Positions 20,206 through 32,734 of a stretch of 64,000 nt of DNA are shown here, piece after piece (position 1 is the stretch's first letter; each line of letters opens with the position of its first letter). The notes below the pieces were generated by a model. That model saw only the letters and a list, made by a program, of their open reading frames with translations, had not been told where the DNA came from and did not search any database. The DNA is from a virus (taxonomy: Duplodnaviria > Caudoviricetes), in IMG/VR virus record IMGVR_UViG_3300042508_000526; one strand, given 5' to 3'. The position numbers and the translations under genes were made by a program.

Positions 20206-20233
20206 ATATGCCCGCTTTTGGTCTTTTATTTAG
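20206..20233 (-). promoter_or_regulatory. phage promoter CTAAAT-N17-CATAT
   Basis: motif copy followed by an 8-bp hairpin. Confidence 0.75.
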
Positions 20234-20236
20234 CTA

Positions 20237-22462
20237 TCAGGAGGCGGCCGCAACTCCAGCCCCTGCGCCACCCACAGCAGCCGCTCCGCCAGCCCCATAG
20301 GCCAAGCGTTTCCCGGCCGGCACCATCGGCGACGCGACCGTCATGCCATACTGGAGCATGGGCTTGTACACATACTTGCCAACCGCGGGCATAACGCCGG
20401 ATTCATGCGGCTTGTACACCATGCTGTGATCCGCGGCCGACAGCCCTTGCAGCCGGCGCGGTGAAAGCTGGAACTCCACGGGTGTCTGGCCCAGCGTGCC
20501 CTTGATGTTCCAGCCGTGATAGCCCGGGCGCTGGAGCATTTGCGATTTACTTATGTTTACGCCGGCCTCTGTCAGCTGCTTCGTTAAGCTATCAATGACA
20601 GGTTGGTCATAACCGCCCTGCGATGTGAGCCGAAAGCCCAGCAGGTCATTGGTTATTGTGTCGCCGTGGCCAGCAATACTTTGCGGTGTCTTTACCCGGC
20701 CGGCATACACTTGGAACCCTTTGGGCTGAAATGACTTCAAGAACTCATTGCCGGCCTGTAACGCCTGCTCACGTTCTTTCTGGAAAACGCCTTGGGGCAC
20801 ATTGTCGCCCAGCGTTGTCATGGGGCCACGAAATGCGCTTCGAGCTGCGCCCACAGCCTTCGAGATACCCTTGAGACCAATGCGCCGGCCGAACTCCATG
20901 AGATTCGCCGACTTTTCTTTTTCGTCGGGCCAGCCGGGTTGCAACTGGTATTCGTACACGGGCTCGCCATGCAGCAGTTGTTTCTTGGCGAGGGCTGGAA
21001 CTTTGCCGACCATAGCGCCGGACGGATCGGGTTGCAGGCGATAGCGTTCCTGCAGCCATTGTTTTTTGTATTCCGGATCTGTTTTGGCCAGCCGCATGAA
21101 CCCCTGTGTCTGCACAAAGTTTTCGATATCTTTGGGCGCAAGGGAAACATTATGTAATCTCTCGGGCGGCACGCTCAGGGGCGTAATCTTGTAGTGTGTG
21201 CCTTCTTCTAACTGGCGCTTGTGTGTCCGCTCCGCCAGATGTTTACGCAGCCGGTCGAGAACTTCCTGCTGTTTCTTCTTGTTCCCGGGAATGATGGCGC
21301 GCGCTTCCCCTGTCCGGGCATTGTTGTAGGCCAGTCCGGGGTGCTGCAGCTCATCAAGAATCTGGTGTAAAGACTTGCGCAGGTTCACGCCCTGCACATT
21401 GCCCTCAAAGCTGTACACGGCAGACTGCTTGCCGAACTCATAGGCGCTGGAGCATTTGCAGTTCCACTTGCGCAGAGATTTGTTAATGCGCGAGTCAGGA
21501 TCTTTGGCCGTGCTGGCGCCAGTGTTAACTCGACGCATGCCGCACATACGGGAGCAGAAAGAATTCTGGCGCTTGGCCCGGTCGCCCTTGGGGTTACTTT
21601 CGGTCACAGGGGCTTTTAAGTTCCCGCCGTGCTCCCGTTCGTAGCTCTTGCGCCCCTTCTCGTTGAGGCCGCCAGCTTCGTTTTTGCCCTCGCTGCGCTG
21701 CCATGCCGGAGTTGACGATATCTTTTCGCTGCTATTGGCGGTCCCAAAAGACGCATTGCCGTTAATATCGCCGCTGGACGAGATAGCCCCATAAGAATTA
21801 ATGGGATTGGCGTTGGGAGAGCTACCGCCGCCTACTGGAGGAAGCTGCCCGGATTGCCCTTGGGCGCTCGCTTGGCCGCCAGCAGGGGCCGCCGGGGCTG
21901 CAGGAGCCTGTGCCATACCCATTGGGGGCGGCGTCGCGGCAGCTGGCATGGCGTATCGTTTAATTCCACTGTTCATCGGCTGTAACTGGGCGTTTCGGGC
22001 CTCCTGTTCAGCCTTTTCATTCTCGATCGCCTGCATAATCGGCTGGGACAAGACGACCGAAAGCTTTTTAAACAAGCTATTTTCCGCTTTTTCCGGCATT
22101 TTTTCGCAGATATGGTTTTCCCCCACGGTTTCTGCCGGCTGGACGGGTTTTTCACCTGCCGCCATGGGTTTATCACTCTGGGGGAGCGTAACTTTAACCG
22201 TTGTAGACTCGGCTTTCTTGCAAATTTGGCTGTAAATACTTACCGCTAATGACTTTGCAGAAAAATCCCAGTTGTTTGGCACCATGGCTGTTTTCTTATT
22301 TGTATCGTCGTCGCTGGACTCTGGCTTTTTGTCTTCTTGAGCCTTGTCAGAGACGTACAGAGGGAGCTTTTTAGGCTTCGGATACTCATGCGCCCAGCGT
22401 TTGGCAATATCTGGGTGCGCAGCCCAGAGAAACCGTCGCTGTTTTTCTGAGCGAAAGGGCAT
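20237..22462 (-). CDS. modular polyprotein-like: MPFxS motif + DUF6321-like + acylphosphatase-like + RelA/SpoT synthetase-like
   Basis: AWQRSEGKNEAGGLN; FEGNVQGVNLR; GRVKTPQSI, DLLGFR, GYHG, VEFQL, DHSMVYKP. Confidence 0.8.
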   Translation of the reverse strand: MPFRSEKQRRFLWAAHPDIAKRWAHEYPKPKKLPLYVSDKAQEDKKPESSDDDTNKKTAMVPNNWDFSAKSLAVSIYSQICKKAESTTVKVTLPQSDKPMAAGEKPVQPAETVGENHICEKMPEKAENSLFKKLSVVLSQPIMQAIENEKAEQEARNAQLQPMNSGIKRYAMPAAATPPPMGMAQAPAAPAAPAGGQASAQGQSGQLPPVGGGSSPNANPINSYGAISSSGDINGNASFGTANSSEKISSTPAWQRSEGKNEAGGLNEKGRKSYEREHGGNLKAPVTESNPKGDRAKRQNSFCSRMCGMRRVNTGASTAKDPDSRINKSLRKWNCKCSSAYEFGKQSAVYSFEGNVQGVNLRKSLHQILDELQHPGLAYNNARTGEARAIIPGNKKKQQEVLDRLRKHLAERTHKRQLEEGTHYKITPLSVPPERLHNVSLAPKDIENFVQTQGFMRLAKTDPEYKKQWLQERYRLQPDPSGAMVGKVPALAKKQLLHGEPVYEYQLQPGWPDEKEKSANLMEFGRRIGLKGISKAVGAARSAFRGPMTTLGDNVPQGVFQKEREQALQAGNEFLKSFQPKGFQVYAGRVKTPQSIAGHGDTITNDLLGFRLTSQGGYDQPVIDSLTKQLTEAGVNISKSQMLQRPGYHGWNIKGTLGQTPVEFQLSPRRLQGLSAADHSMVYKPHESGVMPAVGKYVYKPMLQYGMTVASPMVPAGKRLAYGAGGAAAVGGAGAGVAAAS

Positions 22463-22586
22463 GGCGAAGCTCGTATGTCAGGCGCTGCTGTTTCCCAAGC
22501 TGAATACGCTTATTGTGGCATATGAAACGTGGGAAGAAAAGGGCATGCTATACTGGCGCGCTGGGGAGTTACAAAAGGAGGCCGCC

Positions 22587-22916
22587 ATGCACGCGCTCAA
22601 GACGAGTTTTATTTCGCTGGCGTTGATTCTGTGGGCTGGGGAAGCCTACGCAGAAACCTTAGAGATGTTTTCGGCTGACTGGTGTAAATACTGTCAGCAG
22701 GCGAAAGCAGATTTACTGCCTGAAGATGCGCTGGTGGATAAATACCGGCTGGAAATCATCGACGTGGACCGGGCCAAGGAACTCGCCAAAGATAACAATA
22801 TCAAAACCCTGCCCACGTTTATCCTGCGCGATGACGAGGGGAAAGAAATTGCCCGCCAGACCGGATATCACGGCCTGCGAAAGTTTAAACGCTGGCTAGA
22901 AAATCACACCCGCTAA
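22587..22916 (+). CDS. thioredoxin-like protein with signal peptide
   Basis: AAGGAGG RBS; WCKYC and LPTF (cis-Pro) motifs; the only convincing plus-strand gene. Confidence 0.85.
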   Translation: MHALKTSFISLALILWAGEAYAETLEMFSADWCKYCQQAKADLLPEDALVDKYRLEIIDVDRAKELAKDNNIKTLPTFILRDDEGKEIARQTGYHGLRKFKRWLENHTR

Positions 22917-22976
22917 AATGGCAGGCCGCAAAGCTTTGTGCCAATTAGGCAGTGCTGTCTTGGAGCGCTGATATCT

Positions 22977-23005
22977 AAAAAAAGAGGGTACGGTGTATAC
23001 CCTCT
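22977..23005 (-). terminator. intrinsic terminator
   Basis: AGAGGGTA/TACCCTCT 8-bp stem plus T7. Confidence 0.8.
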
Positions 23006-23581
23006 CCGCGTTAACGTACGCGTTCCACGGGCCTATCTCTGACTCATCGTCAGTTGGGACCACCCATGCGTTTTCTCTAGAGGTTCTGCACCTCTAGCTA
23101 CCGCTTGGACATTACATCCGCGCGCTTCTACCAGTGAGGTTGCCCATACCCAAACCTCACCAGTTCTAGCGGCACAACACGACGTGCATAACACTCGTGC
23201 CACACCCTGTGCTAGATTCGATTGGCCAACGCAAAACCGCATGGCTCTACACCGTAAGAAACGGAACAAGAAAAATTAGAAACCACCTGCTTTAGACTTT
23301 CTTGCGAAAGCTATCACATGGCGTTTCTCCCGATTGGAGCAGCGCGCCAATCACGCGTCACTGTGCGTAGTTGCAGAGTGAAAATAAGTGCGATGTAGAT
23401 TTCTCCGGCATTACGGAGACCGCTACAACACGGCTTGGTACTGCGACCAACTTTACTGCTGCACTGAACAGCGCTGTCTGTATGATTTCCTCGGGGATAT
23501 ACGAGGACCGCATACTCGGCCAAGCACTCCGGCTTGCTTTACCGTGGACAGGCATTGCACGATTGATAGGTATTCCCCATC
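23006..23581 (-). ncRNA. large structured ncRNA candidate 1 (about 575 nt, ROOL-like size)
   Basis: own promoter and terminator, no credible ORF, more than 12 hairpins, repeated internal-loop module, 5'-3' long-range pairings. Confidence 0.7.
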
Positions 23582-23586
23582 ACTAG

Positions 23587-23614
23587 ATATACCCGGTTTT
23601 TGCCCGATATTTAG
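23587..23614 (-). promoter_or_regulatory. phage promoter CTAAAT-N17-TATAT
   Basis: motif copy directly upstream of ncRNA candidate 1. Confidence 0.75.
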
Positions 23615-23679
23615 CTGGGCCCTGATAGCTAAAGAAAGCTTGCGCTTTGCGGAGCCGTCGCCTCCGCTGCCGACATGCT

Positions 23680-24063
23680 TTAGCTCGCCGTGAGCCGCTC
23701 GAAGATCGCGAGGACCTCCGGCATCTTGGTGTTGACGATTTCCTTGATTTCGTCATTCACCGCGACTTGAATCGGACCGGCGTTCTCAACCCACTTCTGC
23801 CCGACACCGGCGGCGAAGAAGTCGGCCAGCGCGGCCATCTCTTCGTCGGTGAAGTTTTCACGCAGGTGGCGCGCCATTACGGGCGCGAACGTGTCGATCG
23901 TGAAGACCTCCAGAAAGGCGGCCTTCATTGACTCGACCATCTGGGCTGGCAACAAGCCATTGCCCATGTTTTCGATCATGTTCTTCACCATCGTGTCGAA
24001 CATGTCACCGGCACTGATCACCGCCAGAAGCCGATCAACCGACGTCGCAGTTTCCATCGTCAT
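23680..24063 (-). CDS. DUF2059-like protein
   Basis: LRENFTDEEMAALADFFAAGVGQKW. Confidence 0.7.
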   Translation of the reverse strand: MTMETATSVDRLLAVISAGDMFDTMVKNMIENMGNGLLPAQMVESMKAAFLEVFTIDTFAPVMARHLRENFTDEEMAALADFFAAGVGQKWVENAGPIQVAVNDEIKEIVNTKMPEVLAIFERLTAS

Positions 24064-24174
24064 TTCTCCGTGAAAGCAGGAGTAACCACAGCTTCAGCAT
24101 GCAACGCGCATGTGAACTCCAACCGGGTTACCGTGAGAGCGCCGCAGGGCAAGCCTACAGCATATCGACATCGC

Positions 24175-24396
24175 TCAGTTCCGGCCGTCCCACTCGAAGG
24201 TAGCTTCGAGCGGATTGGCTGCCGGACGAACCTTCCGCGGTTTGCGCGAAGGCTTGGGGGCTGGCTTGGACGCCGGTGGTGGCGGCGGCTCAGACCAGCG
24301 CTGCGCTAGATCCACATACTCGGAATACTGCTGAGACGCAGCACCAATCCAATAAAGAACCGCGCAGGCAACCACGATCCAGACGAACGCTGACAT
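24175..24396 (-). CDS. small membrane-anchored Pro-rich protein
   Basis: N-terminal helix, PPPPP linker. Confidence 0.6.
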   Translation of the reverse strand: MSAFVWIVVACAVLYWIGAASQQYSEYVDLAQRWSEPPPPPASKPAPKPSRKPRKVRPAANPLEATFEWDGRN

Positions 24397-24476
24397 ATTT
24401 GCACCTTTCTCATGGGGTGTCCTTCATACAGGTTACTGGGGCGTAATATTTATGGCTTACGCCCATCGTTCACCTA

Positions 24477-24504
24477 ATATGCCCGCGTTCTGGCGCAAAT
24501 TTAG
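24477..24504 (-). promoter_or_regulatory. phage promoter CTAAAT-N17-CATAT
   Basis: motif copy followed by the GGGCGTAA/TTACGCCC hairpin. Confidence 0.75.
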
Positions 24505-24617
24505 AGCGTCAAAAAGATGATCAGGTCGAGGTCGTCTTCGTCCTCGTAGTCCCAATCTTCGCTCCCACGAGCGGAACGGGGCGGAATGGCGCAGGGCTGG
24601 CTCGTTGTCGCTGGCAT
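24501..24617 (-). CDS. 38-aa acidic peptide (MPATTSQP...DEDDLDLIIFLTL)
   Basis: translated manually; GGAGG RBS; below the ORF-track cutoff. Confidence 0.55.
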   Translation of the reverse strand: MPATTSQPCAIPPRSARGSEDWDYEDEDDLDLIIFLTL

Positions 24618-24688
24618 GGTCTAGCCTCCGGATTTAGATATTTGGACCGAAGGGCTATTTTACAAACCAGCCTGCTCCAGATTGTTAT

Positions 24689-24716
24689 CTAAATCGGCTA
24701 CAGGCACCGGCGATAT
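24689..24716 (+). promoter_or_regulatory. plus-strand near-match promoter CTAAAT-N17-GATAT
   Basis: same spacing; points into the palindrome pair. Confidence 0.4.
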
Positions 24717-24722
24717 ACGCAA

Positions 24723-24810
24723 TTTGACGTAAGTGTTTGCAACACAAAGACTTACGTCAAAAAGGTATTCCGGTTTGACGTAACATGTTGCGGCACAAGG
24801 ACTTAGCGCT
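24723..24810. repeat. pair of related palindromic elements (TTTGACGTAAGT-N15-ACTTACGTCAAA and a degenerate copy 51 bp downstream)
   Basis: 12-bp inverted repeat plus direct repeat. Confidence 0.7.
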
Positions 24811-24817
24811 AATAGCT

Positions 24818-24843
24818 AAAAAAAGCGGCGCCGAAGCCCGCTC
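24818..24843 (-). terminator. intrinsic terminator
   Basis: GCGG...CTTCGG...CCGC hairpin plus T7. Confidence 0.7.
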
Positions 24844-24844
24844 G

Positions 24845-25605
24845 TGTCCGGTTTCATCACATGGTCGGATTCCACGCCACTGGGACAGACTAATGCGCTA
24901 GCCCGCCCGGTGGTGTTATATGCGCTTAAGGGCAACAGCAAGTAAGTGCGCAGTTACTTGTCGGCAGCAACGATGCGCATACCGCACCGCCTATGCTGTT
25001 GGGTCAGCCACTCACACCCATAGGGTCTTCTATGGGTGGAGCCTTTGAGGCCGCTGACCAGAACCTTCGCATTGCCGAAGCGAACGCGTCTAGGTTGTTA
25101 ACACAAGCAACGCCCACGGAGCAGGTACTACTACCCGCCTTGACCCCGTGATCCGTTTATTAGGCTACGTATACCATTGGGCTCAACTTATTAACGCTGA
25201 TCAGGCGTTAGTTTGTCGGGCTATTGATATACCGCAGGACTTTCACCTGCACCCCCCGCTCTCCTAAGTACTTTTTTATGAGCACAGTCGAGGAAGGAAC
25301 GCTCGTTTGCACACCATAGCACTCGCTTGTATGGCTTAACAGGGCGCTACCCCCGTGCAAACTCCATTGCCTTAACGCCTACCCCCACGAAATTCAACCA
25401 CCAAGGTTGCTCCCCATCCCTTGCGGAATGGGCCTCAGTGTGCGTGCACCCAGAGATTAGTTCATCTCACACGCTTCCGTAGGCGCTGCTTGTGTTAACA
25501 ACGCTAATAAATCCGACGCATTGCCATATTTCCACGTTACGCGTCGGACGTACATGGGGCCGGGCTTCGACCCCAGCGGACTGATGCTCACCCAGTTCGT
25601 GTAAA
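24845..25605 (-). ncRNA. large structured ncRNA candidate 2 (about 760 nt, GOLLD-like size and context)
   Basis: 27-bp long-range helix 25476-25502/25094-25120, multibranch domains, GCAA and TGAAAGT loops, terminator at the 3' end. Confidence 0.72.
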
Positions 25606-25610
25606 ACTCC

Positions 25611-25802
25611 TTAGTTACGATTGACGTGAATGATAAACCCCTCGCCGAACGGTAGACGAAAAGCAGGGTCTGCAATAATCTTGCCATTGACCTCGACTCT
25701 TTCCTCGACGATTAGCCGCCGAGCAATGTGCTCGTCGACAGGCGTTTTGGAAAAAGGACCTACCTCGACCAGATAGTCTACGAGTGTTTGTTCTTTGGCC
25801 AT
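25611..25802 (-). CDS. stand-alone S4 RNA-binding domain protein
   Basis: LVDYLVEVG...IARRLIVEERVEVNGKIIADP. Confidence 0.75.
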   Translation of the reverse strand: MAKEQTLVDYLVEVGPFSKTPVDEHIARRLIVEERVEVNGKIIADPAFRLPFGEGFIIHVNRN

Positions 25803-25851
25803 TTGAAACTCCTTGTGGTTGTTTAACTAACGTCCCAACCGTGCACACAAT

Positions 25852-25879
25852 ATATGCCAGCATTTGACCGGTTATTTAG
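25852..25879 (-). promoter_or_regulatory. phage promoter CTAAAT-N17-CATAT
   Basis: motif copy upstream of the S4 gene and ncRNA candidate 2. Confidence 0.75.
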
Positions 25880-25882
25880 TTA

Positions 25883-26098
25883 TCAAACCAACCGGTCAAT
25901 TGCTGCCACAATTGCGGCCGAATACCGCAACCCGATATCTTCGGCCTCACTGCCCTCGCCGTACGCCTGCTGCAGTTCTTCCTGCATCTTGAGTACGGCG
26001 GCCCTCGTCTCAGCCAGCGTCCGGCGCATGTCCTTGAGCTGGATTTCCGGCGCTGTCTTGTACCGCAACCCCGCCTTCGTCGTCACTTGCGGTTCCAA
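25883..26098 (-). CDS. hypothetical protein
   Basis: AAGGAG RBS before a TTG start; helical; overlaps 26010..26327. Confidence 0.45.
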   Translation of the reverse strand: MEPQVTTKAGLRYKTAPEIQLKDMRRTLAETRAAVLKMQEELQQAYGEGSEAEDIGLRYSAAIVAAIDRLV

Positions 26099-26327
26099 AT
26101 CGCTCTCCTTCTTTCTCACACAGGTCGTCCACCATTGGTTGTTCCAGTTCGTCGCCGCCTGATGCGTTGCCATGTTGCGTCTCTTCGAGGAAATAAAGAA
26201 TGTCGCTGATCGCGCCATCGACAGCACTGACCGCTTGTCGAATCTTGGTCTCAGCGACGCATAGTTCACGTTTTGTTTTAATCATCGTCTTCAGCGTGTC
26301 AACTAAAACTCGCCTTGTCATGTGCAC
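26010..26327 (-). CDS. hypothetical protein
   Basis: ORF track; follows 26334..26618 directly. Confidence 0.5.
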   Translation of the reverse strand: MHMTRRVLVDTLKTMIKTKRELCVAETKIRQAVSAVDGAISDILYFLEETQHGNASGGDELEQPMVDDLCEKEGERFGTASDDEGGVAVQDSAGNPAQGHAPDAG

Positions 26328-26333
26328 TTCTTT

Positions 26334-26618
26334 CTAGCGCAGAGCATCGAACGATTCTTGCAGGCCTACCGCGCGGTCGGCCAGAAACCGAGCCACGCGA
26401 TCCATCACGTCGATGATGCCTTGGTTTTTGTATACCCGCCGGGCCTCCGTCGGCGAGTACGCACCAAAGCACGTGACTTTCAGCAGTATGGGCGAGCCGC
26501 GGTCGGTCACCTCGACCTTTTCGATGTGACACATTTGGTCGCCCACGATGCCATCTTCCAGTGCGCGATTGCATGTATCGCGCAGCGCCTCAATGAACCA
26601 GCGCATGTTGTTGTCCAC
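26334..26618 (-). CDS. hypothetical protein
   Basis: AAGGAG RBS; GC3-rich. Confidence 0.65.
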   Translation of the reverse strand: MDNNMRWFIEALRDTCNRALEDGIVGDQMCHIEKVEVTDRGSPILLKVTCFGAYSPTEARRVYKNQGIIDVMDRVARFLADRAVGLQESFDALR

Positions 26619-26633
26619 TTGCTACTCCTTTGG

Positions 26634-27047
26634 TTATTCGACCACCACGGACTTACCGGCGTACGAGATCTCCGCGAAGGGCGTGATCACAGCCGACAAA
26701 TCCTCGACCACAGCGCCATCCACCGCCACACGGCCCATCACGATCTCCCTGCGCGCGATGCTCGCCGGGATCTGATACGCGCGCGTCAACGCCTCCACGA
26801 GATACACCGCCGGATACGCCTCGGGCGGCTTTCCCAGCTGATCGTCCAAAAGGATCAGCGCCGCCTCGATCGAAAACTCGCCCGACACCGCCGCCTTATC
26901 AGGCGAAACCACACCGTGCAGGCTGCAGGCGTACGACCCGTTCTGCTGCAGAAATCGGATCAGGCTGCGGGCCGTTGTGCTATCAAAAGCCCGGCCCACC
27001 GCCTCGTTGTTGTACGTTCCGCCGATGCCATAGATCATCAGGTTCAT
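26634..27047 (-). CDS. protein with C-terminal S4-like domain
   Basis: SIARREIVMGRVAVDGAVVEDLSAVITP. Confidence 0.65.
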   Translation of the reverse strand: MNLMIYGIGGTYNNEAVGRAFDSTTARSLIRFLQQNGSYACSLHGVVSPDKAAVSGEFSIEAALILLDDQLGKPPEAYPAVYLVEALTRAYQIPASIARREIVMGRVAVDGAVVEDLSAVITPFAEISYAGKSVVVE

Positions 27048-27051
27048 GATA

Positions 27052-27708
27052 TTAATCCCAGAGGCCCTCAAAGTACTTACCAAAGAGCAAGAGTCCACGA
27101 GACTTCCTGCTCTGCCACTCCATGTGGCCGTCCCTGTCGTACCCACCGCGGCGCATCGCGTCCTGAAACGAAAGCCCCGGTTCAGTCCGCGGTTTCGCCG
27201 GGTCCAGATCGTAATGAAACTTGTCTTCGGCGTTCGGGTCGACCATCTGCTCAAACGCCCAGATCATTTCATTCATCACCCAGTCCCACCGCTTGTGGGT
27301 GTTATCATCCGAGTACCCCATGTTCTGCTGTTCGGCAGTCAGGGGCGGCGCATTAACACTCTTCAGCTCGTCTGGTACGTCTTCGTCTTCCACGTGCGGC
27401 GAGCCGTGCTTGGTCTCTTTCAGCTGCTTGAGCATGGGCAGGACAATAAGCGCGAGCGTATCGTCCATGCCCCACGTGTCGTACGCGTCAATGCGAATCT
27501 TGACCTTGCGTGGCCAGCGGTGATTGATCCAGTTCTCCAACCGGTTTAAATAATAAAACCGCTTGAACACCCACGAATCGATCTGCTCCTGCTTGTCGTA
27601 CTCTTCTTCGTTGCGGGCGTTATACACGCCGTACCAGCGCTGGACGGCCCGCTTGAGCCACGTGTACGGCCGAAACCAGTGATCGTACGGGCCGATGTAA
27701 ACCTTCAT
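27052..27708 (-). CDS. conserved myovirus-type hypothetical protein
   Basis: KIRIDAYDTWGMDDTLALIVLPMLKQL...HGSP...WDWVMNEMIWAFE. Confidence 0.75.
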   Translation of the reverse strand: MKVYIGPYDHWFRPYTWLKRAVQRWYGVYNARNEEEYDKQEQIDSWVFKRFYYLNRLENWINHRWPRKVKIRIDAYDTWGMDDTLALIVLPMLKQLKETKHGSPHVEDEDVPDELKSVNAPPLTAEQQNMGYSDDNTHKRWDWVMNEMIWAFEQMVDPNAEDKFHYDLDPAKPRTEPGLSFQDAMRRGGYDRDGHMEWQSRKSRGLLLFGKYFEGLWD

Positions 27709-28013
27709 CGCTTCCTCCGTGAAAGAAACCGGGGCCATTGGTGCCGACAATATGGGCACTGCCAGTAGCTTACGCCGTCGTAATGCTCTGGATGATCATG
27801 CGGCAGCTCAACACCCACGATCCGGCTGAACCGGTATGGCGGGCTGTAATGATCTTCGATGTACTTCTGCAGTTCCTCGTCGGACTTGTCGGCGCACCAA
27901 TCCTGCGTCCGTAACACGTCGAAGATCGCGCCGCCATCCCAGCTGGCATTGCAGCTAGGGCAGCGACCGTGATGATCCAGCTCTATCGGCTTGTCGTCCT
28001 TAGAAACTTTCAT
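27705..28013 (-). CDS. zinc-finger protein
   Basis: CPSC and CPYC pairs. Confidence 0.65.
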   Translation of the reverse strand: MKVSKDDKPIELDHHGRCPSCNASWDGGAIFDVLRTQDWCADKSDEELQKYIEDHYSPPYRFSRIVGVELPHDHPEHYDGVSYWQCPYCRHQWPRFLSRRKR

Positions 28014-28264
28014 ACGGGCAACTCTTCTTTCGCTGGGAGTAAGCAGTACCGATCCTTGTACGGGAACACGCCGAGTGACCTCCCGTTATCCCATCGCACG
28101 CTTATCTGATGCCACTCCGGTGGACCCTCGAAGTTAACGTGCACAATCGTGCCTTCAAGCCCGGCCGGCATATCTTTCTCCACGGGCATCCATGTGGAGC
28201 CGGGATTGACCATCTGAGACAGCAACCGAATCCGCAAACCAACCGCAGGCGCAAGCGACGCCAT
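28010..28264 (-). CDS. DUF4314-like protein
   Basis: GTIVHV...QISVRWDNGRSLGV. Confidence 0.7.
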   Translation of the reverse strand: MASLAPAVGLRIRLLSQMVNPGSTWMPVEKDMPAGLEGTIVHVNFEGPPEWHQISVRWDNGRSLGVFPYKDRYCLLPAKEELPV

Positions 28265-28569
28265 TAGAAACCCTCCGGAAAGACACGAACACTTCCTGCG
28301 TTCTGCCGAAACGCAGCGATCATGGGCTTGTAGACCGACTCGCACAGCCCGTGCTGCGCGCAGAGGTCTTCGGCCCAACCCATCCCCATCCAGACGACAT
28401 CCTCGCTCGCCGTCAGGCTAGCGAGGCCGACGAGCATGCACATCAGCGTTTCAACCACATCATTGCTCACGTAGGATGCGTGCTCGATCCCGGTTGAAGA
28501 GCGGACTGCAGCAACCCGCGCCGAAAGCTGGTTCAATTTCCCAGCCTTTTTGGGATGTAATGTGATCAT
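28264..28569 (-). CDS. hypothetical protein
   Basis: ORF track; start uncertain; overlaps the upstream Cys-rich ORF. Confidence 0.45.
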   Translation of the reverse strand: MITLHPKKAGKLNQLSARVAAVRSSTGIEHASYVSNDVVETLMCMLVGLASLTASEDVVWMGMGWAEDLCAQHGLCESVYKPMIAAFRQNAGSVRVFPEGF

Positions 28570-28747
28570 AGATCCCGCAGAAGTATCGGGGCTGTTTTCC
28601 ATCGTCTTGTTGAACCTCCACAAGATGTTTACACGCTGCATCAGCCGCGCTGACGCTCTCACCAAAGCTGCAAGGCCGCCGCTTGCAGCAAAAACCAGAA
28701 TGCACACACGGCACAGCGCCGGGGTACAGCGGCAAAGGGGCAACCAT
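28460..28747 (-). CDS. Cys-rich putative metal/Fe-S binding protein (YkgJ-like)
   Basis: CVHSGFCC...C...CKHL...CGIY; AAGGAG RBS. Confidence 0.55.
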   Translation of the reverse strand: MVAPLPLYPGAVPCVHSGFCCKRRPCSFGESVSAADAACKHLVEVQQDDGKQPRYFCGIYDHITSQKGWEIEPAFGAGCCSPLFNRDRARILREQ

Positions 28748-28799
28748 CAGATGCTCCTTCGTGGTTAAGAACGCTAATGGCACAGCGCCAATAGCAAAG

Positions 28800-29140
28800 A
28801 AAAACCGGGCGGGTCGATTTACGCGTTCCCAACCCTATAACCCAAGACGAGCTGCAGCTCTTCTTGGAACCCCTCCACGCCGGAGTCGCCGCCACGATAT
28901 TCACCGCAACGGTTCCGGAAGGTAAGGAGTACCCGGTTTACAACGGCGCGCTCAGGTATGCTAGCTGGCGCTGGATACAGGACTTTGGGATCGCGCATAC
29001 CATTCCACCCTAGTTTCCTGCACCCCCGTTGTTGGCTTAGACCCGGCTGTTAATTCAGCGCTCTTACCCGATGAGGGATAAGATACGACCGCCATGTCGT
29101 AGCGTTAATTCGCGCCGCTACCCGATGAAGGATAGCTCCG
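28800..29140 (-). ncRNA. structured ncRNA candidate 3 downstream of tmRNA (pseudoknotted core 28800-29050)
   Basis: nested helices, a 7-bp pseudoknot, G-U pairs favouring the minus strand, U-rich 3' end. Confidence 0.62.
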
Positions 29141-29146
29141 GGCGAG

Positions 29147-29494
29147 TGGAGCCGGCGGGAATCGAACCCGCGTCCAGAGATGTCTCCAATAAAGACGTCT
29201 ACATGCGTAGGTTGTTGCTACTTGCGCTACAACCAAAGCCAGCCGATTATCGGCGTCAGGTGGGTTACCACCATCTTTGCGTGTCTTTCCACGCCGCCTG
29301 CTGTCTTCCCAGCGGCCAACCTGATTGGGCGATGAGGCTCAGGTCGCCTCACCCGATCACTGCGTCAAGCAGCGAGAGCGGGAGCGCTGTTGAGGGCGCC
29401 AACTAACAATGTGGGCGATTTTTAACGTGGCCCTTCGTCCAACCACGGCATGCAGTCTAGATCTTCCTCATCCTGTCGAAACCAGTACGGCCCC
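29147..29494 (-). ncRNA. ssrA: tmRNA, tag peptide (A)GALNSAPALAA
   Basis: 5' GGGGCCGTACTGGTTTCGAC, 3' GGGTTCGATTCCCGCCGGCTCCA; tag ORF 29365-29400 ending LAA-stop. Confidence 0.95.
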
Positions 29495-29500
29495 TAAATT

Positions 29501-29689
29501 TCACGCAACTGCGCTGGGCAGTGGCGTTACTTCGTAGGCGCGGCCATAAAAATAGCCGTGCCAAAAGTCGTCAACGTGTTTGTCTTGCAACAGCGCATTC
29601 TGATCCGCAACTGTTGCAGCCTCTTCCTTGTTTAGTTTCAACACGCGGCAGTTGTTGCCGAGAGTTTCCGCATACACAAGCGGTGTCAT
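29501..29689 (-). CDS. hypothetical protein
   Basis: 62 aa, AAGGGA RBS. Confidence 0.5.
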   Translation of the reverse strand: MTPLVYAETLGNNCRVLKLNKEEAATVADQNALLQDKHVDDFWHGYFYGRAYEVTPLPSAVA

Positions 29690-29775
29690 TTCGTTTCCCT
29701 TTTGTGAAAAATGAAACCAGCACGGCCACAATTGTATTAGAAACTCACCGCAAAACGTTGAGTTTCCAATATGAA

Positions 29776-29849
29776 TAACCCGGGTGGGAGTCGAACCCAC
29801 AACAAGTAGATCCTAAGTCTACCGCCTCTGCCAATTGGGCTACCGAGTC
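29776..29849 (-). tRNA. tRNA-Leu(TAG), short variable loop
   Basis: cloverleaf, anticodon loop CTTAGGA, GGTTCGACTCC T-arm; no encoded CCA. Confidence 0.9.
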
Positions 29850-29922
29850 ATTAAATGTGGCTGGTTGAGAAGGCAACCATTTAACCAAGCCCAACACCTT
29901 GCGAATGCGTTGGCACCACACA

Positions 29923-29994
29923 TGACCCCACGGGGATTCGAACCCCGATTATCGCCGTGAAAGGGCGGTGTCCTAACCATTAGACGATGGGGCC
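29923..29994 (-). tRNA. tRNA-Glu(TTC)
   Basis: canonical cloverleaf, loop CTTTCAC. Confidence 0.95.
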
Positions 29995-29998
29995 GCGG

Positions 29999-30160
29999 TC
30001 AGGCAAGTCCAACATACTCTGCTTTGCGCCAGAAGTACATTGGCATGCCGATTTGCATATGCCCGTCGCGGACGCGTGTATCCAGCGGGGCATTGTTCGA
30101 ATTTGCCCACGCAATGATACTCGTCACCGCATCGTCGCTCTGCACTGTTCTGTAAAGCAT
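29999..30160 (-). CDS. 53-aa hypothetical protein (MLYRTVQSDD...)
   Basis: translated manually; GGAG RBS. Confidence 0.5.
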   Translation of the reverse strand: MLYRTVQSDDAVTSIIAWANSNNAPLDTRVRDGHMQIGMPMYFWRKAEYVGLA

Positions 30161-30196
30161 TGGTACACTCCATTGTTATCAGAACACAAATCACAG

Positions 30197-30267
30197 TAGC
30201 CCGCCGAGGAGTCGAACCCCGCGTTGCGAGTTAATAAGACTCGCTTGCCAACCGGTTTCCGCGGGCC
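30197..30267 (-). tRNA. atypical tRNA or tRNA-like element, anticodon TAT (Ile)
   Basis: acceptor stem and T-arm intact; anticodon loop CTTATTA; non-canonical D region, G8 and U37. Confidence 0.6.
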
Positions 30268-30353
30268 GGAACGAGCGGGTGCCGGAAGCTTGGGCTTCTC
30301 CCGGCACCCGCCCTACCAGACGCGACGCGCTTTAGCGTTTCGCGGCCAGTGTG

Positions 30354-30689
30354 CTATCGGTAGCGCTTGCAGGCGAACCAGCGGCCATTTGAGCCGCGTG
30401 CTACGCCTTGGTCAACTACCCGCATACCAGACCGAGAAAAGCAACAGTTACCCAACGCGGCTTCGGGAGTGCTCCCGCTGCCGACGCCTTCGTAACCGCT
30501 GTTGCCGCCGAAGTGGCGGCACTGCCCGCATCGAGCCTGCATCTCCGCAACGCCCTGCGCAGTCGCGTTGGTAGGCTGATAGTATCGCATCGGTTGATGC
30601 GACGTGTAGCTCTCGATGATGACAGGTCCGTCAGCGCAGGCAATCCCAGCAAGCACTGACAGCACAGAAAAAACACAGACGCGAATCAT
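30354..30689 (-). CDS. secreted Cys-rich protein
   Basis: signal peptide; GYEGVG...ALGNCC...DQGVARGSNGRWFACKRY. Confidence 0.75.
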   Translation of the reverse strand: MIRVCVFSVLSVLAGIACADGPVIIESYTSHQPMRYYQPTNATAQGVAEMQARCGQCRHFGGNSGYEGVGSGSTPEAALGNCCFSRSGMRVVDQGVARGSNGRWFACKRYR

Positions 30690-30760
30690 AGATCCTCCGT
30701 GAAGAGCTGCAGGTGCGCGCAGCCCAAAAAGATCAGCCCCGCACCGGGCTTTCTGACACT

Positions 30761-31213
30761 TCAGCAGCCAGCCGGCTGCAGCACGCGGCCTTTGATGACG
30801 CGGCTGCCCGGTTTCCGGCCGGTGTTACGCACCTTATGCGCAACGCCCATCCGAATCAACCGGTTGGCCCGGGCGGCGGTGAAGATGTAGTTGTTACCGA
30901 TCATCCTGTTGGGGAGGAACGGGTTACGGTCCAGTCCCTTGTTCCCATGGCGACGCGACTCATGCGCCTCCAAGAACTTTTCGGCCGCCGCTGCGCGAAG
31001 CCCGTAAAAACGGTTCATGGTCAAGGGGCGCAAACCCAACAACTCACGACCGAAGTTAATACGAGCCCGAATCTCACGCATTGAGATCGAGCAGCTGCAG
31101 AGCCACGGATCGTTCTTTGCCACGATGGTCTCCTTATCATCCCTGATGTACAGCCGCACAGCGACTGTGTCCACTGAACAGCAAGTTACACCGTGTAACC
31201 TGCTTGCAGCCAA
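30761..31213 (-). CDS. basic hypothetical protein
   Basis: ORF track; start uncertain. Confidence 0.5.
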   Translation of the reverse strand: MAASRLHGVTCCSVDTVAVRLYIRDDKETIVAKNDPWLCSCSISMREIRARINFGRELLGLRPLTMNRFYGLRAAAAEKFLEAHESRRHGNKGLDRNPFLPNRMIGNNYIFTAARANRLIRMGVAHKVRNTGRKPGSRVIKGRVLQPAGC

Positions 31214-31226
31214 ACGCTAGCTGCAA

Positions 31227-31299
31227 TGGCCGCGGGGGGACTCGAACCCCCGCCCTCCTGCGTGTAAAGCAGGCGCTCTACCAACTGAGCTACGCGGCT
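31227..31299 (-). tRNA. tRNA-Val(TAC)
   Basis: canonical arms, loop TTTACAC; A1-C72 mismatch. Confidence 0.92.
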
Positions 31300-31307
31300 A
31301 CCGTACG

Positions 31308-31676
31308 CTATTCAGCGTCGGGTTTGATGGCGTCGAGCATGTCAACGATCTGCCGCATGTACCCACGCGGCGGAAGCGGTACCCAGCTTTTTGCGCGTTC
31401 TGGGTCGTACGGTCGCCAATATGGCGCATCGTCAGCGTCCACCACACCCCAATCGTTGTTAACAAACTTGTTGTGGTTGATGGCGTCGACAAGCCGTTGC
31501 GGCATATCTTCGTACACGAGTTGCCCGTCTGGGCCCTCGTAGCAGCACTGCGTTTGCACCGTGCTGTCGAATTTACCGATGTGGATTCCGATATTCGGAC
31601 CGAAGTAATAAACCATTTGGTTTTCTTCTGGCAGCCGATCGATACACCGAATCCATCCGTCGTTGTCCGCACTCAT
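31308..31676 (-). CDS. DUF551-like phage protein
   Basis: GWIRCIDRLPEENQMV...WRP. Confidence 0.65.
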   Translation of the reverse strand: MSADNDGWIRCIDRLPEENQMVYYFGPNIGIHIGKFDSTVQTQCCYEGPDGQLVYEDMPQRLVDAINHNKFVNNDWGVVDADDAPYWRPYDPERAKSWVPLPPRGYMRQIVDMLDAIKPDAE

Positions 31677-31954
31677 TCGTCTTCTTCCTCGTCGGGCGGG
31701 AACATGGCGTTCCAGCAGGTGTTGCAGATGCCGGACAGAAGAAACTCACGCTCGCTAGCGGGCAAGTACGGGAAACAATCCTGCACGTAATTGCCCGCTT
31801 CGAACCGCGCGTAGTCCTGCGGCTTGACGGTCACAGAGACCACCGTACCGCAGGAATAGCATGGACCCTCAATGAGGATCTGCTGCTCGCCACCATCGGT
31901 TACCTCTTCCGTGGTGCAGTTCCCGCGGAAGACGTACTTTGTTATCAAAGCCAT
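31673..31954 (-). CDS. Zn-ribbon phage protein
   Basis: CYSC...QDCFPYLPASEREFLLSGICNTCW. Confidence 0.7.
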   Translation of the reverse strand: MALITKYVFRGNCTTEEVTDGGEQQILIEGPCYSCGTVVSVTVKPQDYARFEAGNYVQDCFPYLPASEREFLLSGICNTCWNAMFPPDEEEDE

Positions 31955-31984
31955 TGAGCACCTCCCGTGAAAAAAAAAACACAA

Positions 31985-32057
31985 TAGGAGCGGTGGGACT
32001 CGAACCCACACTTGAAGAATTTTAAGTCCTTTGCCTCTGCCTTTGGGCTACACTCCC
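31985..32057 (-). tRNA. tRNA-Leu(TAA), short variable loop
   Basis: cloverleaf, loop CTTAAAA. Confidence 0.9.
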
Positions 32058-32099
32058 ACATCTGTAAGAAAAACGATGCGAATTTCTTACAGAATTAAC

Positions 32100-32375
32100 T
32101 CAGGCGTCGTCGTTGTAGTCTGCCAGCCGACGACCAGCTTTTTCGGCGGAACCGCTGTGCGCTTTCAGAAGCCCGCGCGCATCGACAGCGCGGTCGATGT
32201 AGCGGAAACACGTTTCCAACCGCAAAAACCGCGGGTAGGACTTGCGCTCCGCAAACCGGTCCAGCGCGCCACGCAAATCCTCGATGTACCGGTCAATTGC
32301 GCCGTCGTAGAATTCGGCCAACTTTTCCAGTTCATCCTTTTCGACCTCAGCGGACGACGGGCTGTTGCTCGACAT
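32100..32375 (-). CDS. hypothetical protein
   Basis: ORF track, helical. Confidence 0.55.
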   Translation of the reverse strand: MSSNSPSSAEVEKDELEKLAEFYDGAIDRYIEDLRGALDRFAERKSYPRFLRLETCFRYIDRAVDARGLLKAHSGSAEKAGRRLADYNDDA

Positions 32376-32616
32376 ACGCTAACCTTTCTTGTTGGGCGTT
32401 AGGGGTCCAGATGTAACGCTGCTCACCCACTTGGCACCACCAGCGTTGGCCGTCATGCCAGTAGATAGGCGTTGTTGCCGCGGACGGCGGCTGCAACGCT
32501 GTAGGTGTCGGGTGCGCATGTCGATACTCCGTGTAGCTCTGCCACAGCAGAGCAACCAACATGAACACCGCAGTGAGCAACCCGATGATATTCCCTTTGA
32601 TCTCAATCCCCTTCAT
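32347..32616 (-). CDS. membrane-anchored hypothetical protein
   Basis: N-terminal helix; AGGAGG RBS. Confidence 0.6.
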   Translation of the reverse strand: MKGIEIKGNIIGLLTAVFMLVALLWQSYTEYRHAHPTPTALQPPSAATTPIYWHDGQRWWCQVGEQRYIWTPNAQQERLAYVEQQPVVR

Positions 32617-32660
32617 TTCAAACCTCCTTGTTTAGAAATGAAAATCATTCAATCGACCAG

Positions 32661-32734
32661 TGCCCCCTCTAGGATTCGAACCTAGGACCAACGGATTAAA
32701 AGTCCGATGCTCTAACCAGCTGAGCTAAGGGGGC
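32661..32734 (-). tRNA. tRNA-Lys(TTT)
   Basis: canonical cloverleaf, loop CTTTTAA. Confidence 0.95.

What the first reader, a model, noticed from the sequence alone, without database searches (positions are those of the whole stretch)
24845..25605. About 760-nt giant structured ncRNA candidate co-transcribed behind an S4-domain gene
A 27-bp helix links 25476-25502 with 25094-25120, and its G-U pairs favour the minus strand. Other elements: CCCATTCC-GCAA-GGGATGGG, a GTTTGCAC/GTGCAAAC three-way junction, a GCAGG-TGAAAGT-CCTGC T-loop-like hairpin, GGTCAGC/GCTGACC and CAACAGCA/TGCTGTTG multibranch domains, and a UUCG-type terminator at the end. Length and proximity to tRNA genes resemble GOLLD RNA. 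The only upstream gene in the transcription unit encodes an RNA-binding S4 domain, suggesting a ribonucleoprotein.
Basis: partly seen in the sequence, partly recalled or inferred. Interest (0 to 1): 0.85.

Follow-up and report, generated by a model that had tools for sequence, protein, structure and literature searches.

The report
New structured RNA of lake jumbo phages

Summary
There is a real structured non-coding RNA here, on the minus strand. The conserved unit is the ~405-nt domain closed by the long helix (window 25094-25502), not a 760-nt transcript.

- **Family:** I found 12 distinct full-length relatives plus one truncated copy, nearly all on phage contigs, several of 194-205 kb. They fall into two subfamilies.
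- **Covariation:** 96% of cells pair and 44 of 102 consensus pairs show compensatory changes, against at most 17 in 500 random control sets. G·U pairs fix the strand.
- **Expression:** In four lake metatranscriptomes from three studies, RNA contigs cover only 25113-25479 of an 8-kb stretch.
- **Known families:** Rfam 15 gives no match (GOLLD, ROOL, OLE, RNase P and others).
- **Flanks:** The 5' 108 nt is a gene remnant plus a leader hairpin. The 3' 250 nt has no relative and folds weakly.
- **S4 gene:** It is a neighbour only in this phage. Relatives carry the RNA without S4 next to it, or S4 without the RNA.

Best reading: a new class of stable phage RNA, probably cut out of a longer transcript at the helix. 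Its function is unknown. It resembles ROOL/GOLLD in kind, not in membership. The scan had flagged this same stretch in an overlapping window, not on other DNA.

The parts
25094..25502 (-). Conserved RNA unit: the long closing helix P1 plus the multi-helix core (409 nt in this phage; about 350 nt in subfamily B).
   Evidence: nhmmer and CM matches in relatives cover only this span. RNAalifold gives 102 pairs, 43 of them with compensatory changes. Fold z = -8.5.
25113..25479 (-). The part found as RNA in lake metatranscriptomes, taken here as the approximate mature RNA (~367 nt).
   Evidence: Contigs from 4 RNA runs of 3 studies cover only this span of 22000-30000. Their outermost ends are 25477-25479 and 25113-25115. 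These are assembled contigs, so the ends are a weak hint.
25476..25502 (-). 5' arm of helix P1.
   Evidence: 27 bp with 2 G·U pairs. 25 bp are kept in all 12 sequences, and 17 of those pairs show both-side changes.
25094..25120 (-). 3' arm of helix P1.
   Evidence: Same evidence as for the 5' arm.
25442..25474 (-). P2 (GCGUGU/GCACGC) enclosing a small hairpin with an invariant UCUC loop.
   Evidence: The duplex is kept in all 12 sequences, with G-C to A-U and G·U changes.
25402..25440 (-). P3 hairpin, capped by a GCAA tetraloop in subfamily A and shorter in subfamily B.
   Evidence: The third pair of the tip stem is C-G, G-C or A-U in the window, L174 and L170 respectively.
25385..25392 (-). 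5' strand of a long-range helix that pairs with 25144-25151.
   Evidence: UUUCGUGG/UCACGGGG in subfamily A against UUUUGCAG/CUGCAGGG in subfamily B (read). Metatranscriptome variants change U·G to C-G here.
25305..25362 (-). Variable branched domain closed by GUUUGCAC/GUGCAAAC.
   Evidence: The closing helix is rewritten compensatorily in L174 and L170. An RNA contig variant shows the same change.
25252..25295 (-). P7, an irregular helix with conserved CUCGACU and GGAGAGCGGG strands.
   Evidence: 12 pairs, with covariation at two of them.
25234..25250 (-). Invariant 5-bp hairpin with a 7-nt loop UGAAAGN, resembling a tRNA T arm.
   Evidence: The stem is invariant apart from one G·U. The family CM picks up tRNA T arms through it.
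25190..25212 (-). P10 hairpin. Its 7-nt loop CUGAUCA (25198-25204) has a self-complementary core.
   Evidence: The stem covaries strongly. The loop is CUGAUCA in subfamily A and CCGUACA in subfamily B, and both cores are palindromic.
25121..25138 (-). P12 hairpin, with loop GUAG in subfamily A and GUGA in subfamily B.
   Evidence: An RNA contig variant has a fully rewritten stem with the same loop (table 7).
25503..25610 (-). 5' leader, not part of the family. It holds a gene remnant (25544-25597) and a hairpin (25511-25549) shared with L170.
   Evidence: tblastn of the L174 95-aa ORF matches residues 2-19 at 78% identity, E = 9e-7, and the start codon reads ACG. nhmmer matches to L174 and L170 are.
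24843..25093 (-). Lineage-specific 3' tail, not part of the family.
   Evidence: No relative in any locus, z = -2.5, and no RNA contig.
24815..24842 (-). Terminator-like GC-rich hairpin followed by U7.
   Evidence: Read. The scan did not list it.
25611..25802 (-). 63-aa S4-domain gene, the upstream neighbour in this phage only.
   Evidence: Pfam S4, E = 1.8e-6.
25852..25879 (-). Phage promoter motif CTAAATA-N16-CATAT, the probable start of the transcription unit.
   Evidence: 2 matches in the window against 0 expected. The same motif lies directly upstream of the RNA in L174 and L170.

Best explanation
This is a member of a previously undescribed family of structured non-coding RNAs carried by a clade of freshwater jumbo phages.

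**Shown**
- The conserved gene is a ~350-405-nt domain whose two ends are joined by a 25-27-bp helix.
- The fold is kept by compensatory changes.
- The RNA is on the minus strand.
- In lake RNA samples the domain inside the helix is present, while the neighbouring genes, the leader and the 3' tail are not.

**Inferred**
- In this phage the RNA is transcribed from the promoter upstream of the S4 gene, as part of a longer transcript.
- The long helix is cut by a double-strand-specific nuclease, most likely host RNase III.
- This releases a stable ~367-nt RNA that acts in trans.
- A T-arm-like loop, GNRA-type tetraloops and a four-way core suggest a compact tertiary fold.

**Guess**
- Like ROOL and GOLLD, it acts as an RNA-only or RNA-scaffold particle.
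- It may pair with itself through the palindromic loop of P10.
- It may serve the phage's tRNA/tmRNA translation module.
For: - **Relatives:** 12 distinct sequences in two subfamilies (54-58% identity between them), on phage contigs of which several are 194-205 kb, plus metagenome contigs.
- **Covariation:** RNAalifold gives 102 pairs, 43 with both-side changes.
- **Controls:** 96% of cells pair and 44 pairs are compensatory. Slid partners give 6-13, and 500 random pair sets give a mean of 8.8 and a maximum of 17.
- **Strand:** 124 G·U cells would be C·A on the other strand.
- **Not coding:** stops occur in all six frames of every member.
- **RNA cover:** contigs from 4 metatranscriptomes of 3 studies cover only 25113-25479 of 8 kb. 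Variant contigs from relatives carry compensatory changes.
- **Own promoter elsewhere:** the RNA has its own promoter motif in L174 and L170.
- **Synteny:** tRNA genes, tmRNA, the phrog_11543 gene and the RNA keep their order.
- **Rfam:** no match.
Against: - The ends come from assembled contigs at depth 2-7, which cannot fix termini. They imply a 4-nt 3' overhang, not the 2 nt that RNase III leaves.
- The phage has no RNase III gene by Pfam, and the host is unknown.
- Many compensatory changes separate only two clades, so independent events are fewer than the counts suggest.
- Nothing bears directly on function.
- A complete related genome lacks the RNA, so it is dispensable for this kind of phage.
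- The self-pairing loop rests on a single AU-to-UA swap.
Confidence: 0.62

Rival explanations
1. One reading: one ~760-nt giant RNA that forms a ribonucleoprotein with the S4-domain protein encoded just upstream.
For: - The S4 domain is real.
- The S4 gene and the RNA probably share a promoter and a terminator in this phage.
- A second S4-like gene lies 1 kb upstream.
Against: - Homology and RNA cover end at the long helix.
- The 5' 108 nt contains a gene remnant.
- Nine subfamily-B members, and L174 and L170, have no S4 gene next to the RNA.
- L006 has S4 followed by a terminator within about 90 nt. L004 has S4 followed by protein genes.
Confidence: 0.06
2. A highly diverged member of GOLLD, ROOL or another described large RNA class.
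For: It is phage-borne, lies in a tRNA/tmRNA neighbourhood, is ornate and comes from lakes. This matches the habitat and context reported for GOLLD and ROOL (PMC12286853, read).
Against: - No match to any of 4227 Rfam models at E <= 10, for the window RNA or for L110.
- No match at gathering score in seven relatives' loci.
- The size is about half that of ROOL or GOLLD.
Confidence: 0.04
3. A cis-acting processing and stability element: a long RNase III site with a structured insert that sets the fate of the flanking mRNAs, with no function of its own in trans.
For: - In subfamily B the RNA begins 20-30 nt after the stop codon of the upstream gene.
- A long, perfectly paired helix is the most conserved structural feature.
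Against: - About 350 nt of internal structure is conserved with invariant loops, far more than a cleavage site needs.
- The inner domain, not the mRNAs, is what accumulates.
- L174 and L170 give the RNA its own promoter.
Confidence: 0.12
4. A tRNA-related decoy or a ribozyme. Either it is an RNA that mimics part of a tRNA to occupy host tRNA-targeting nucleases or tRNA-binding factors, or it is a new catalytic RNA acting on the phage's tRNA or tmRNA transcripts.
For: - The invariant T-arm-like hairpin is picked up as a tRNA T arm by the family CM.
- Synteny with five tRNA genes and a tmRNA is conserved.
Against: - No acceptor-like or anticodon-like arm was recognised. ARAGORN and the Rfam tRNA, tmRNA and RNase P models do not match the core.
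- The hairpin stem never varies, so even its pairing is unproven.
Confidence: 0.1

Closest known systems
ROOL and GOLLD RNAs (large ornate phage and prophage RNAs)
   Same: - Encoded by phages, near tRNA genes.
- Many covarying helices.
- Abundant relative to the neighbouring mRNAs.
- Function unknown.
- A loop that could pair between copies, as in their kissing-loop bridges (PMC12286853).
   Different: - No sequence or covariance-model match.
- About 350-405 nt, against roughly 580-660 and more than 800 nt.
- The ends are clamped by a conserved 25-bp helix.
- Oligomerisation is untested.
RNase III processing stalks of ribosomal RNA operons and phage early transcripts
   Same: A long, almost perfect helix formed by the sequences flanking a stable RNA. 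The RNA found in samples ends inside that helix.
   Different: - The enclosed RNA is not an rRNA.
- Cleavage was not shown.
- The contig ends suggest a 4-nt rather than a 2-nt overhang.
- No phage RNase III gene was found.
Stable small RNAs of the phage T4 tRNA gene cluster (species 1 and 2). This comparison is from my own knowledge, not from a tool.
   Same: Phage-encoded stable RNAs of unknown function that are co-located with the phage's tRNA genes.
   Different: Those are about 140 nt and lie inside the tRNA cluster. This RNA is 370-405 nt and lies 3.6-4.3 kb from the cluster.
tRNA T arm / T-loop motif
   Same: A 5-bp stem with a 7-nt loop in which U at position 1 and A at position 5 fit the T-loop pattern. 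The family CM aligns it to real tRNA T arms.
   Different: It is one hairpin within a much larger fold. No acceptor stem or other tRNA arm was found.

Membership tests
GOLLD RNA | Match to the curated Rfam covariance model. | tested here: not met
   No hit at gathering score or at E <= 10, on the window RNA, on L110 or on seven relatives' loci.
GOLLD RNA | Length typically above 800 nt, with a conserved 3' half and a variable 5' half. | tested here: not met
   The conserved unit is 350-405 nt. The flanks are not conserved.
GOLLD / ROOL (shared context) | Phage or prophage encoded, often near tRNA genes. | tested here: met
   The record is a 203-kb phage with terminal repeats. Five tRNA genes and a tmRNA lie 3.6-7 kb upstream, and the synteny is kept in relatives.
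ROOL RNA | Match to the curated Rfam covariance model. | tested here: not met
   No hit.
ROOL / GOLLD | Homo-oligomeric cage held by kissing loops and A-minor contacts. | not testable with these tools
   The only lead is a palindromic P10 loop, GAUC in subfamily A and GUAC in subfamily B.
OLE RNA | Match to the Rfam model. | tested here: not met
   No hit.
Bacterial RNase P RNA | Match to the Rfam RNase P models, which encode the conserved core regions. | tested here: not met
   No hit at E <= 10. The GUGAAAGUCC string sits in a local hairpin.
   Among the 12 family members, an S4 gene lies directly upstream of the RNA only in the window. S4 occurs without the RNA in L004 and L006.
RNase III substrate | A double-stranded helix of about 20 bp or more. 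| tested here: met
   25-27 bp, with covariation at 17 pairs.
RNase III substrate | Staggered cleavage in the helix leaving 2-nt 3' overhangs. | tested here: inconclusive
   RNA contig ends at 25479 and 25113 lie inside the helix, but they are only contig ends and imply a 4-nt overhang.

The most novel reading that the evidence does not exclude
This is the founding member of a third, independent class of self-assembling phage RNAs. After excision at the long helix, the ~370-nt RNA would dimerise or form a larger RNA-only particle through the palindromic P10 loop. That loop has core GAUC in one subfamily and GUAC in the other, a swap that keeps self-complementarity. The particle would act on the translation machinery alongside the phage's tRNAs and tmRNA.
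Probability: 0.2. Interest if true: 0.88.

Novelty: new variant of a known kind. Interest (0 to 1): 0.72.

Why it matters
- **Rarity:** large structured RNAs with strong covariation and no known family are rare. Each one found so far (OLE, GOLLD, ROOL, raiA) has opened a structural or functional question.\n- **What this one offers:** a compact size suited to cryo-EM, natural expression evidence from lakes, a clear processing signal, and two subfamilies for covariation analysis.\n- **Context:** it sits in a translation-related RNA island of jumbo phages.\n- **A concrete test:** it would show whether phage 'ornate' RNAs share a way of working (excision, compact fold, self-assembly) despite unrelated sequences.\n- **If ordinary:** it still corrects the annotation of these phage genomes, where gene callers place small ORFs over it.

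Tried and rejected
**Searches that found no relatives**\n- blastn against 50,697 phage records found nothing.\n- Protein-seeded searches with the S4 protein and the DUF2059 protein in IMG/VR found nothing.\n- The first DNA patterns failed. The 17-mer hairpin gave 57 unrelated, mostly terminator-like hairpins. With contigs this is not proof of silence.\n- The Atlas search on the 128-aa upstream protein gave only helical look-alikes.\n- The PDB search with the S4 protein gave only weak uS4 matches.\n- Earlier scan notes held no relatives on other DNA.\n- The 2023 catalogue of candidate structured RNAs from IMG/VR (PMC10690425) lists short motifs averaging 67 nt. I could not check whether a fragment of this RNA is among them.\n\n**Readings considered and dropped**\n- MITE or transposon ends: only a single copy in the genome.\n- Recoded protein gene: stops in all frames in all members.\n- Cobalamin riboswitch, group I or II intron, SRP RNA and RNase P RNA: no Rfam match.

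Full report
**Setting.** The window lies in a 203,206-bp virus record with direct terminal repeats. The record is found in lake-water metagenomes. Genes around the finding run on the minus strand. Five tRNA genes (29775-32734) and a tmRNA (29144-29494) lie upstream.

**The observation.**
- The stretch 24815-25610 has no ORF longer than 76 aa.
- As RNA, the minus strand folds at -341 kcal/mol against -287 ± 6 for shuffles (z = -9.0). The plus strand gives z = -4.25.
- The 27-bp helix is real. Its two non-Watson-Crick pairs are G·U on the minus strand (read).
- The upstream 63-aa ORF has an S4 domain.
- Rfam 15 gives no match in the region, even at E <= 10.

**Expression.**
- I laid contigs of four lake metatranscriptomes from three studies on 22000-30000.
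- Apart from short matches to the universally conserved ends of the tmRNA and a tRNA, the only part covered is 25113-25479. That is the domain enclosed by the long helix.
- The perfect-match contigs are 25113-25389, 25391-25478, 25161-25459 and 25229-25473.
- The S4 gene, the leader, the outer parts of the helix, the 3' 250 nt and all neighbouring genes are bare. This argues against DNA carry-over.
- Several contigs differ at 8-13 positions. Placed on the predicted fold, these changes include compensatory pairs (U-A to C-G, G-C to A-U, C-G to G-C) and many wobble-compatible changes.
- Contigs cannot fix RNA ends, so the termini are only a hint.

**Relatives.**
- The contigs encoding the identical S4 protein are the same phage at 99.97-100% identity.
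- A profile of the nearby phrog_11543 protein brought in 80 syntenic loci. nhmmer found the RNA in two of them, L110 and L118.
- Patterns taken from the invariant blocks then found more members in IMG/VR, JGI metagenomes and one MAG contig.
- In all there are 12 distinct full-length sequences and one truncated copy.
- Subfamily A is the window, L174 (88% identical) and L170 (80%).
- Subfamily B has nine members at 54-58% identity to the window.
- Every match ends at the long helix. The window's 3' tail has no relative, and its leader matches only a gene start in L174 and a hairpin in L170.

**Structure.**
- RNAalifold on the 12 sequences predicts 102 pairs, 43 with both-side changes. 17 of the 25 pairs of the closing helix are among them.
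- In my own control, 96% of cells pair and 44 pairs are compensatory. Slid partners give 37-44% paired and 6-13 compensatory. 500 random pair sets give a mean of 8.8 and a maximum of 17.
- The same pairs read on the opposite strand drop to 87% paired, because 124 G·U cells become C·A.
- Two more helices that the consensus missed are kept in all sequences. One is P2. The other is a long-range helix, 25385-25392 with 25144-25151 (read).
- Invariant features include a UCUC loop, the strand CCUAAYAAACGG that links two helices, and a 5-bp hairpin with loop UGAAAGN.
- That hairpin is close enough to a tRNA T arm that a family model scores real tRNAs through it.
- All six reading frames carry stops in every member.
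- Many compensatory changes separate just two clades, so independent events are fewer than the raw counts. Changes also occur within each subfamily (L118 and L176 against the rest; the window against L174 and L170).

**What the flanks are.**
- Window 25597-25544 matches residues 2-19 of a 95-aa ORF that is intact in L174, L170 and L004 (78% identity, E = 9e-7). Its start codon reads ACG here.
- The first ~65 nt of the proposed giant RNA are therefore a gene remnant.
- The 3' tail folds weakly (z = -2.5). In L170 it is replaced by a 65-nt spacer before the next gene, and in L110 by about 90 nt with a clean terminator.

**Context and the S4 question.**
- The order tRNA genes, tmRNA, phrog_11543 gene, RNA is kept across relatives.
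- In all nine subfamily-B loci, P1 starts 20-30 nt after the stop codon of the homologue of window ORF 25883..26269.
- In L174 and L170 the RNA follows the 95-110-aa ORF. The phage promoter motif CTAAATA-N16-CATAT lies between that ORF and the RNA.
- In the window that motif occurs only at 25852-25879, upstream of S4, and at 20206-20233.
- S4 homologues in L004, L006, L118 and L176 sit directly after the phrog_11543 gene.
- L006 has a terminator about 90 nt after S4. L004 has two protein genes there.
- A complete 198-kb relative lacks the RNA. The same model scores the window, L110 and L118 strongly.
- The S4 gene is therefore a neighbour by recent rearrangement, not a conserved partner, and the RNA is an accessory gene.

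**How it most likely works.**
- *Shown:* a conserved fold and strand, and accumulation of the inner domain.
- *Inferred:* transcription from the S4 promoter in this phage, followed by excision at the long helix by a double-strand-specific nuclease. The phage has no RNase III gene by Pfam, so a host enzyme is assumed.
- *Guess:* a trans-acting compact RNA of the ROOL/GOLLD kind. Those RNAs are phage-borne, lie near tRNA genes, have unknown function and self-assemble through kissing loops (PMC12286853).
- One lead for self-pairing is the P10 loop. It reads CUGAUCA in subfamily A and CCGUACA in subfamily B, so the central AU-to-UA swap keeps the core palindromic. This is a single event and was noticed after the fact.

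**Novelty.**
- No Rfam family matches any member.
- Literature searches found no description of this RNA.
- A catalogue of short candidate motifs from IMG/VR could hold fragments of it.
- I file it as a new class within the known kind 'large structured phage RNAs of unknown function'.

Noticed in passing
window 28780-29143 (minus strand, directly 3' of the tmRNA gene): About 350 nt just downstream of the tmRNA are strongly conserved in the related phages (nhmmer E down to 3.7e-69; for example L110 4375-4752, right after its tmRNA). Only short ORFs lie there. It could be a second conserved RNA or a small gene.
   Followed up: partly
window 22960-23640: This is the 575-nt ncRNA candidate noted by the first stage. 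No RNA contig covers it. Only its first ~80 nt recur in relatives, at several places per locus, which fits a repeated promoter/terminator cassette rather than a conserved RNA.
   Followed up: partly
IMG/VR loci L016-L072: The exact hairpin GCAGG-UGAAAGU-CCUGC occurs in 57 unrelated viral contigs. Many copies are followed by a T run, like a terminator, and several sit in recurring sequence contexts.
   Followed up: no
window 24400-24814: The spacer downstream of the terminator holds a 38-aa ORF and repeated TTACGTCAAA-like words. It is conserved in subfamily-B phages about 1 kb beyond their RNA (E down to 6e-15).
   Followed up: no
window 26634-27254 and relatives L004, L006, L118, L176: A second, weaker S4-like segment ends the 206-aa ORF that overlaps the phrog_11543 gene. 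In relatives a small S4 gene always sits directly after the phrog_11543 gene. This suggests the S4 gene moved or was duplicated in this phage.
   Followed up: partly
L110, L118, L178, L157, L171 and the window: The same set and order of tRNA genes (Lys, Leu, Val, Glu, Leu) followed by a tmRNA is kept across these phages. L118 has an extra tRNA-Met.
   Followed up: no
L162 (MAG contig RGVZ01000266.1, 5161 bp): A contig binned into a bacterial MAG carries the phage RNA and the phage's neighbouring genes. Its RNA matches the family profile with the same score as viral contigs L153 and L154, and its aligned sequence is the same. It is probably a phage contig placed in the wrong bin.
   Followed up: partly
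L007-L013 gene calls over window 24845-25610: Public gene callers place small ORFs of 38-39 aa, in different positions, on or beside the RNA in the near-identical contigs. These calls are probably spurious.
   Followed up: no
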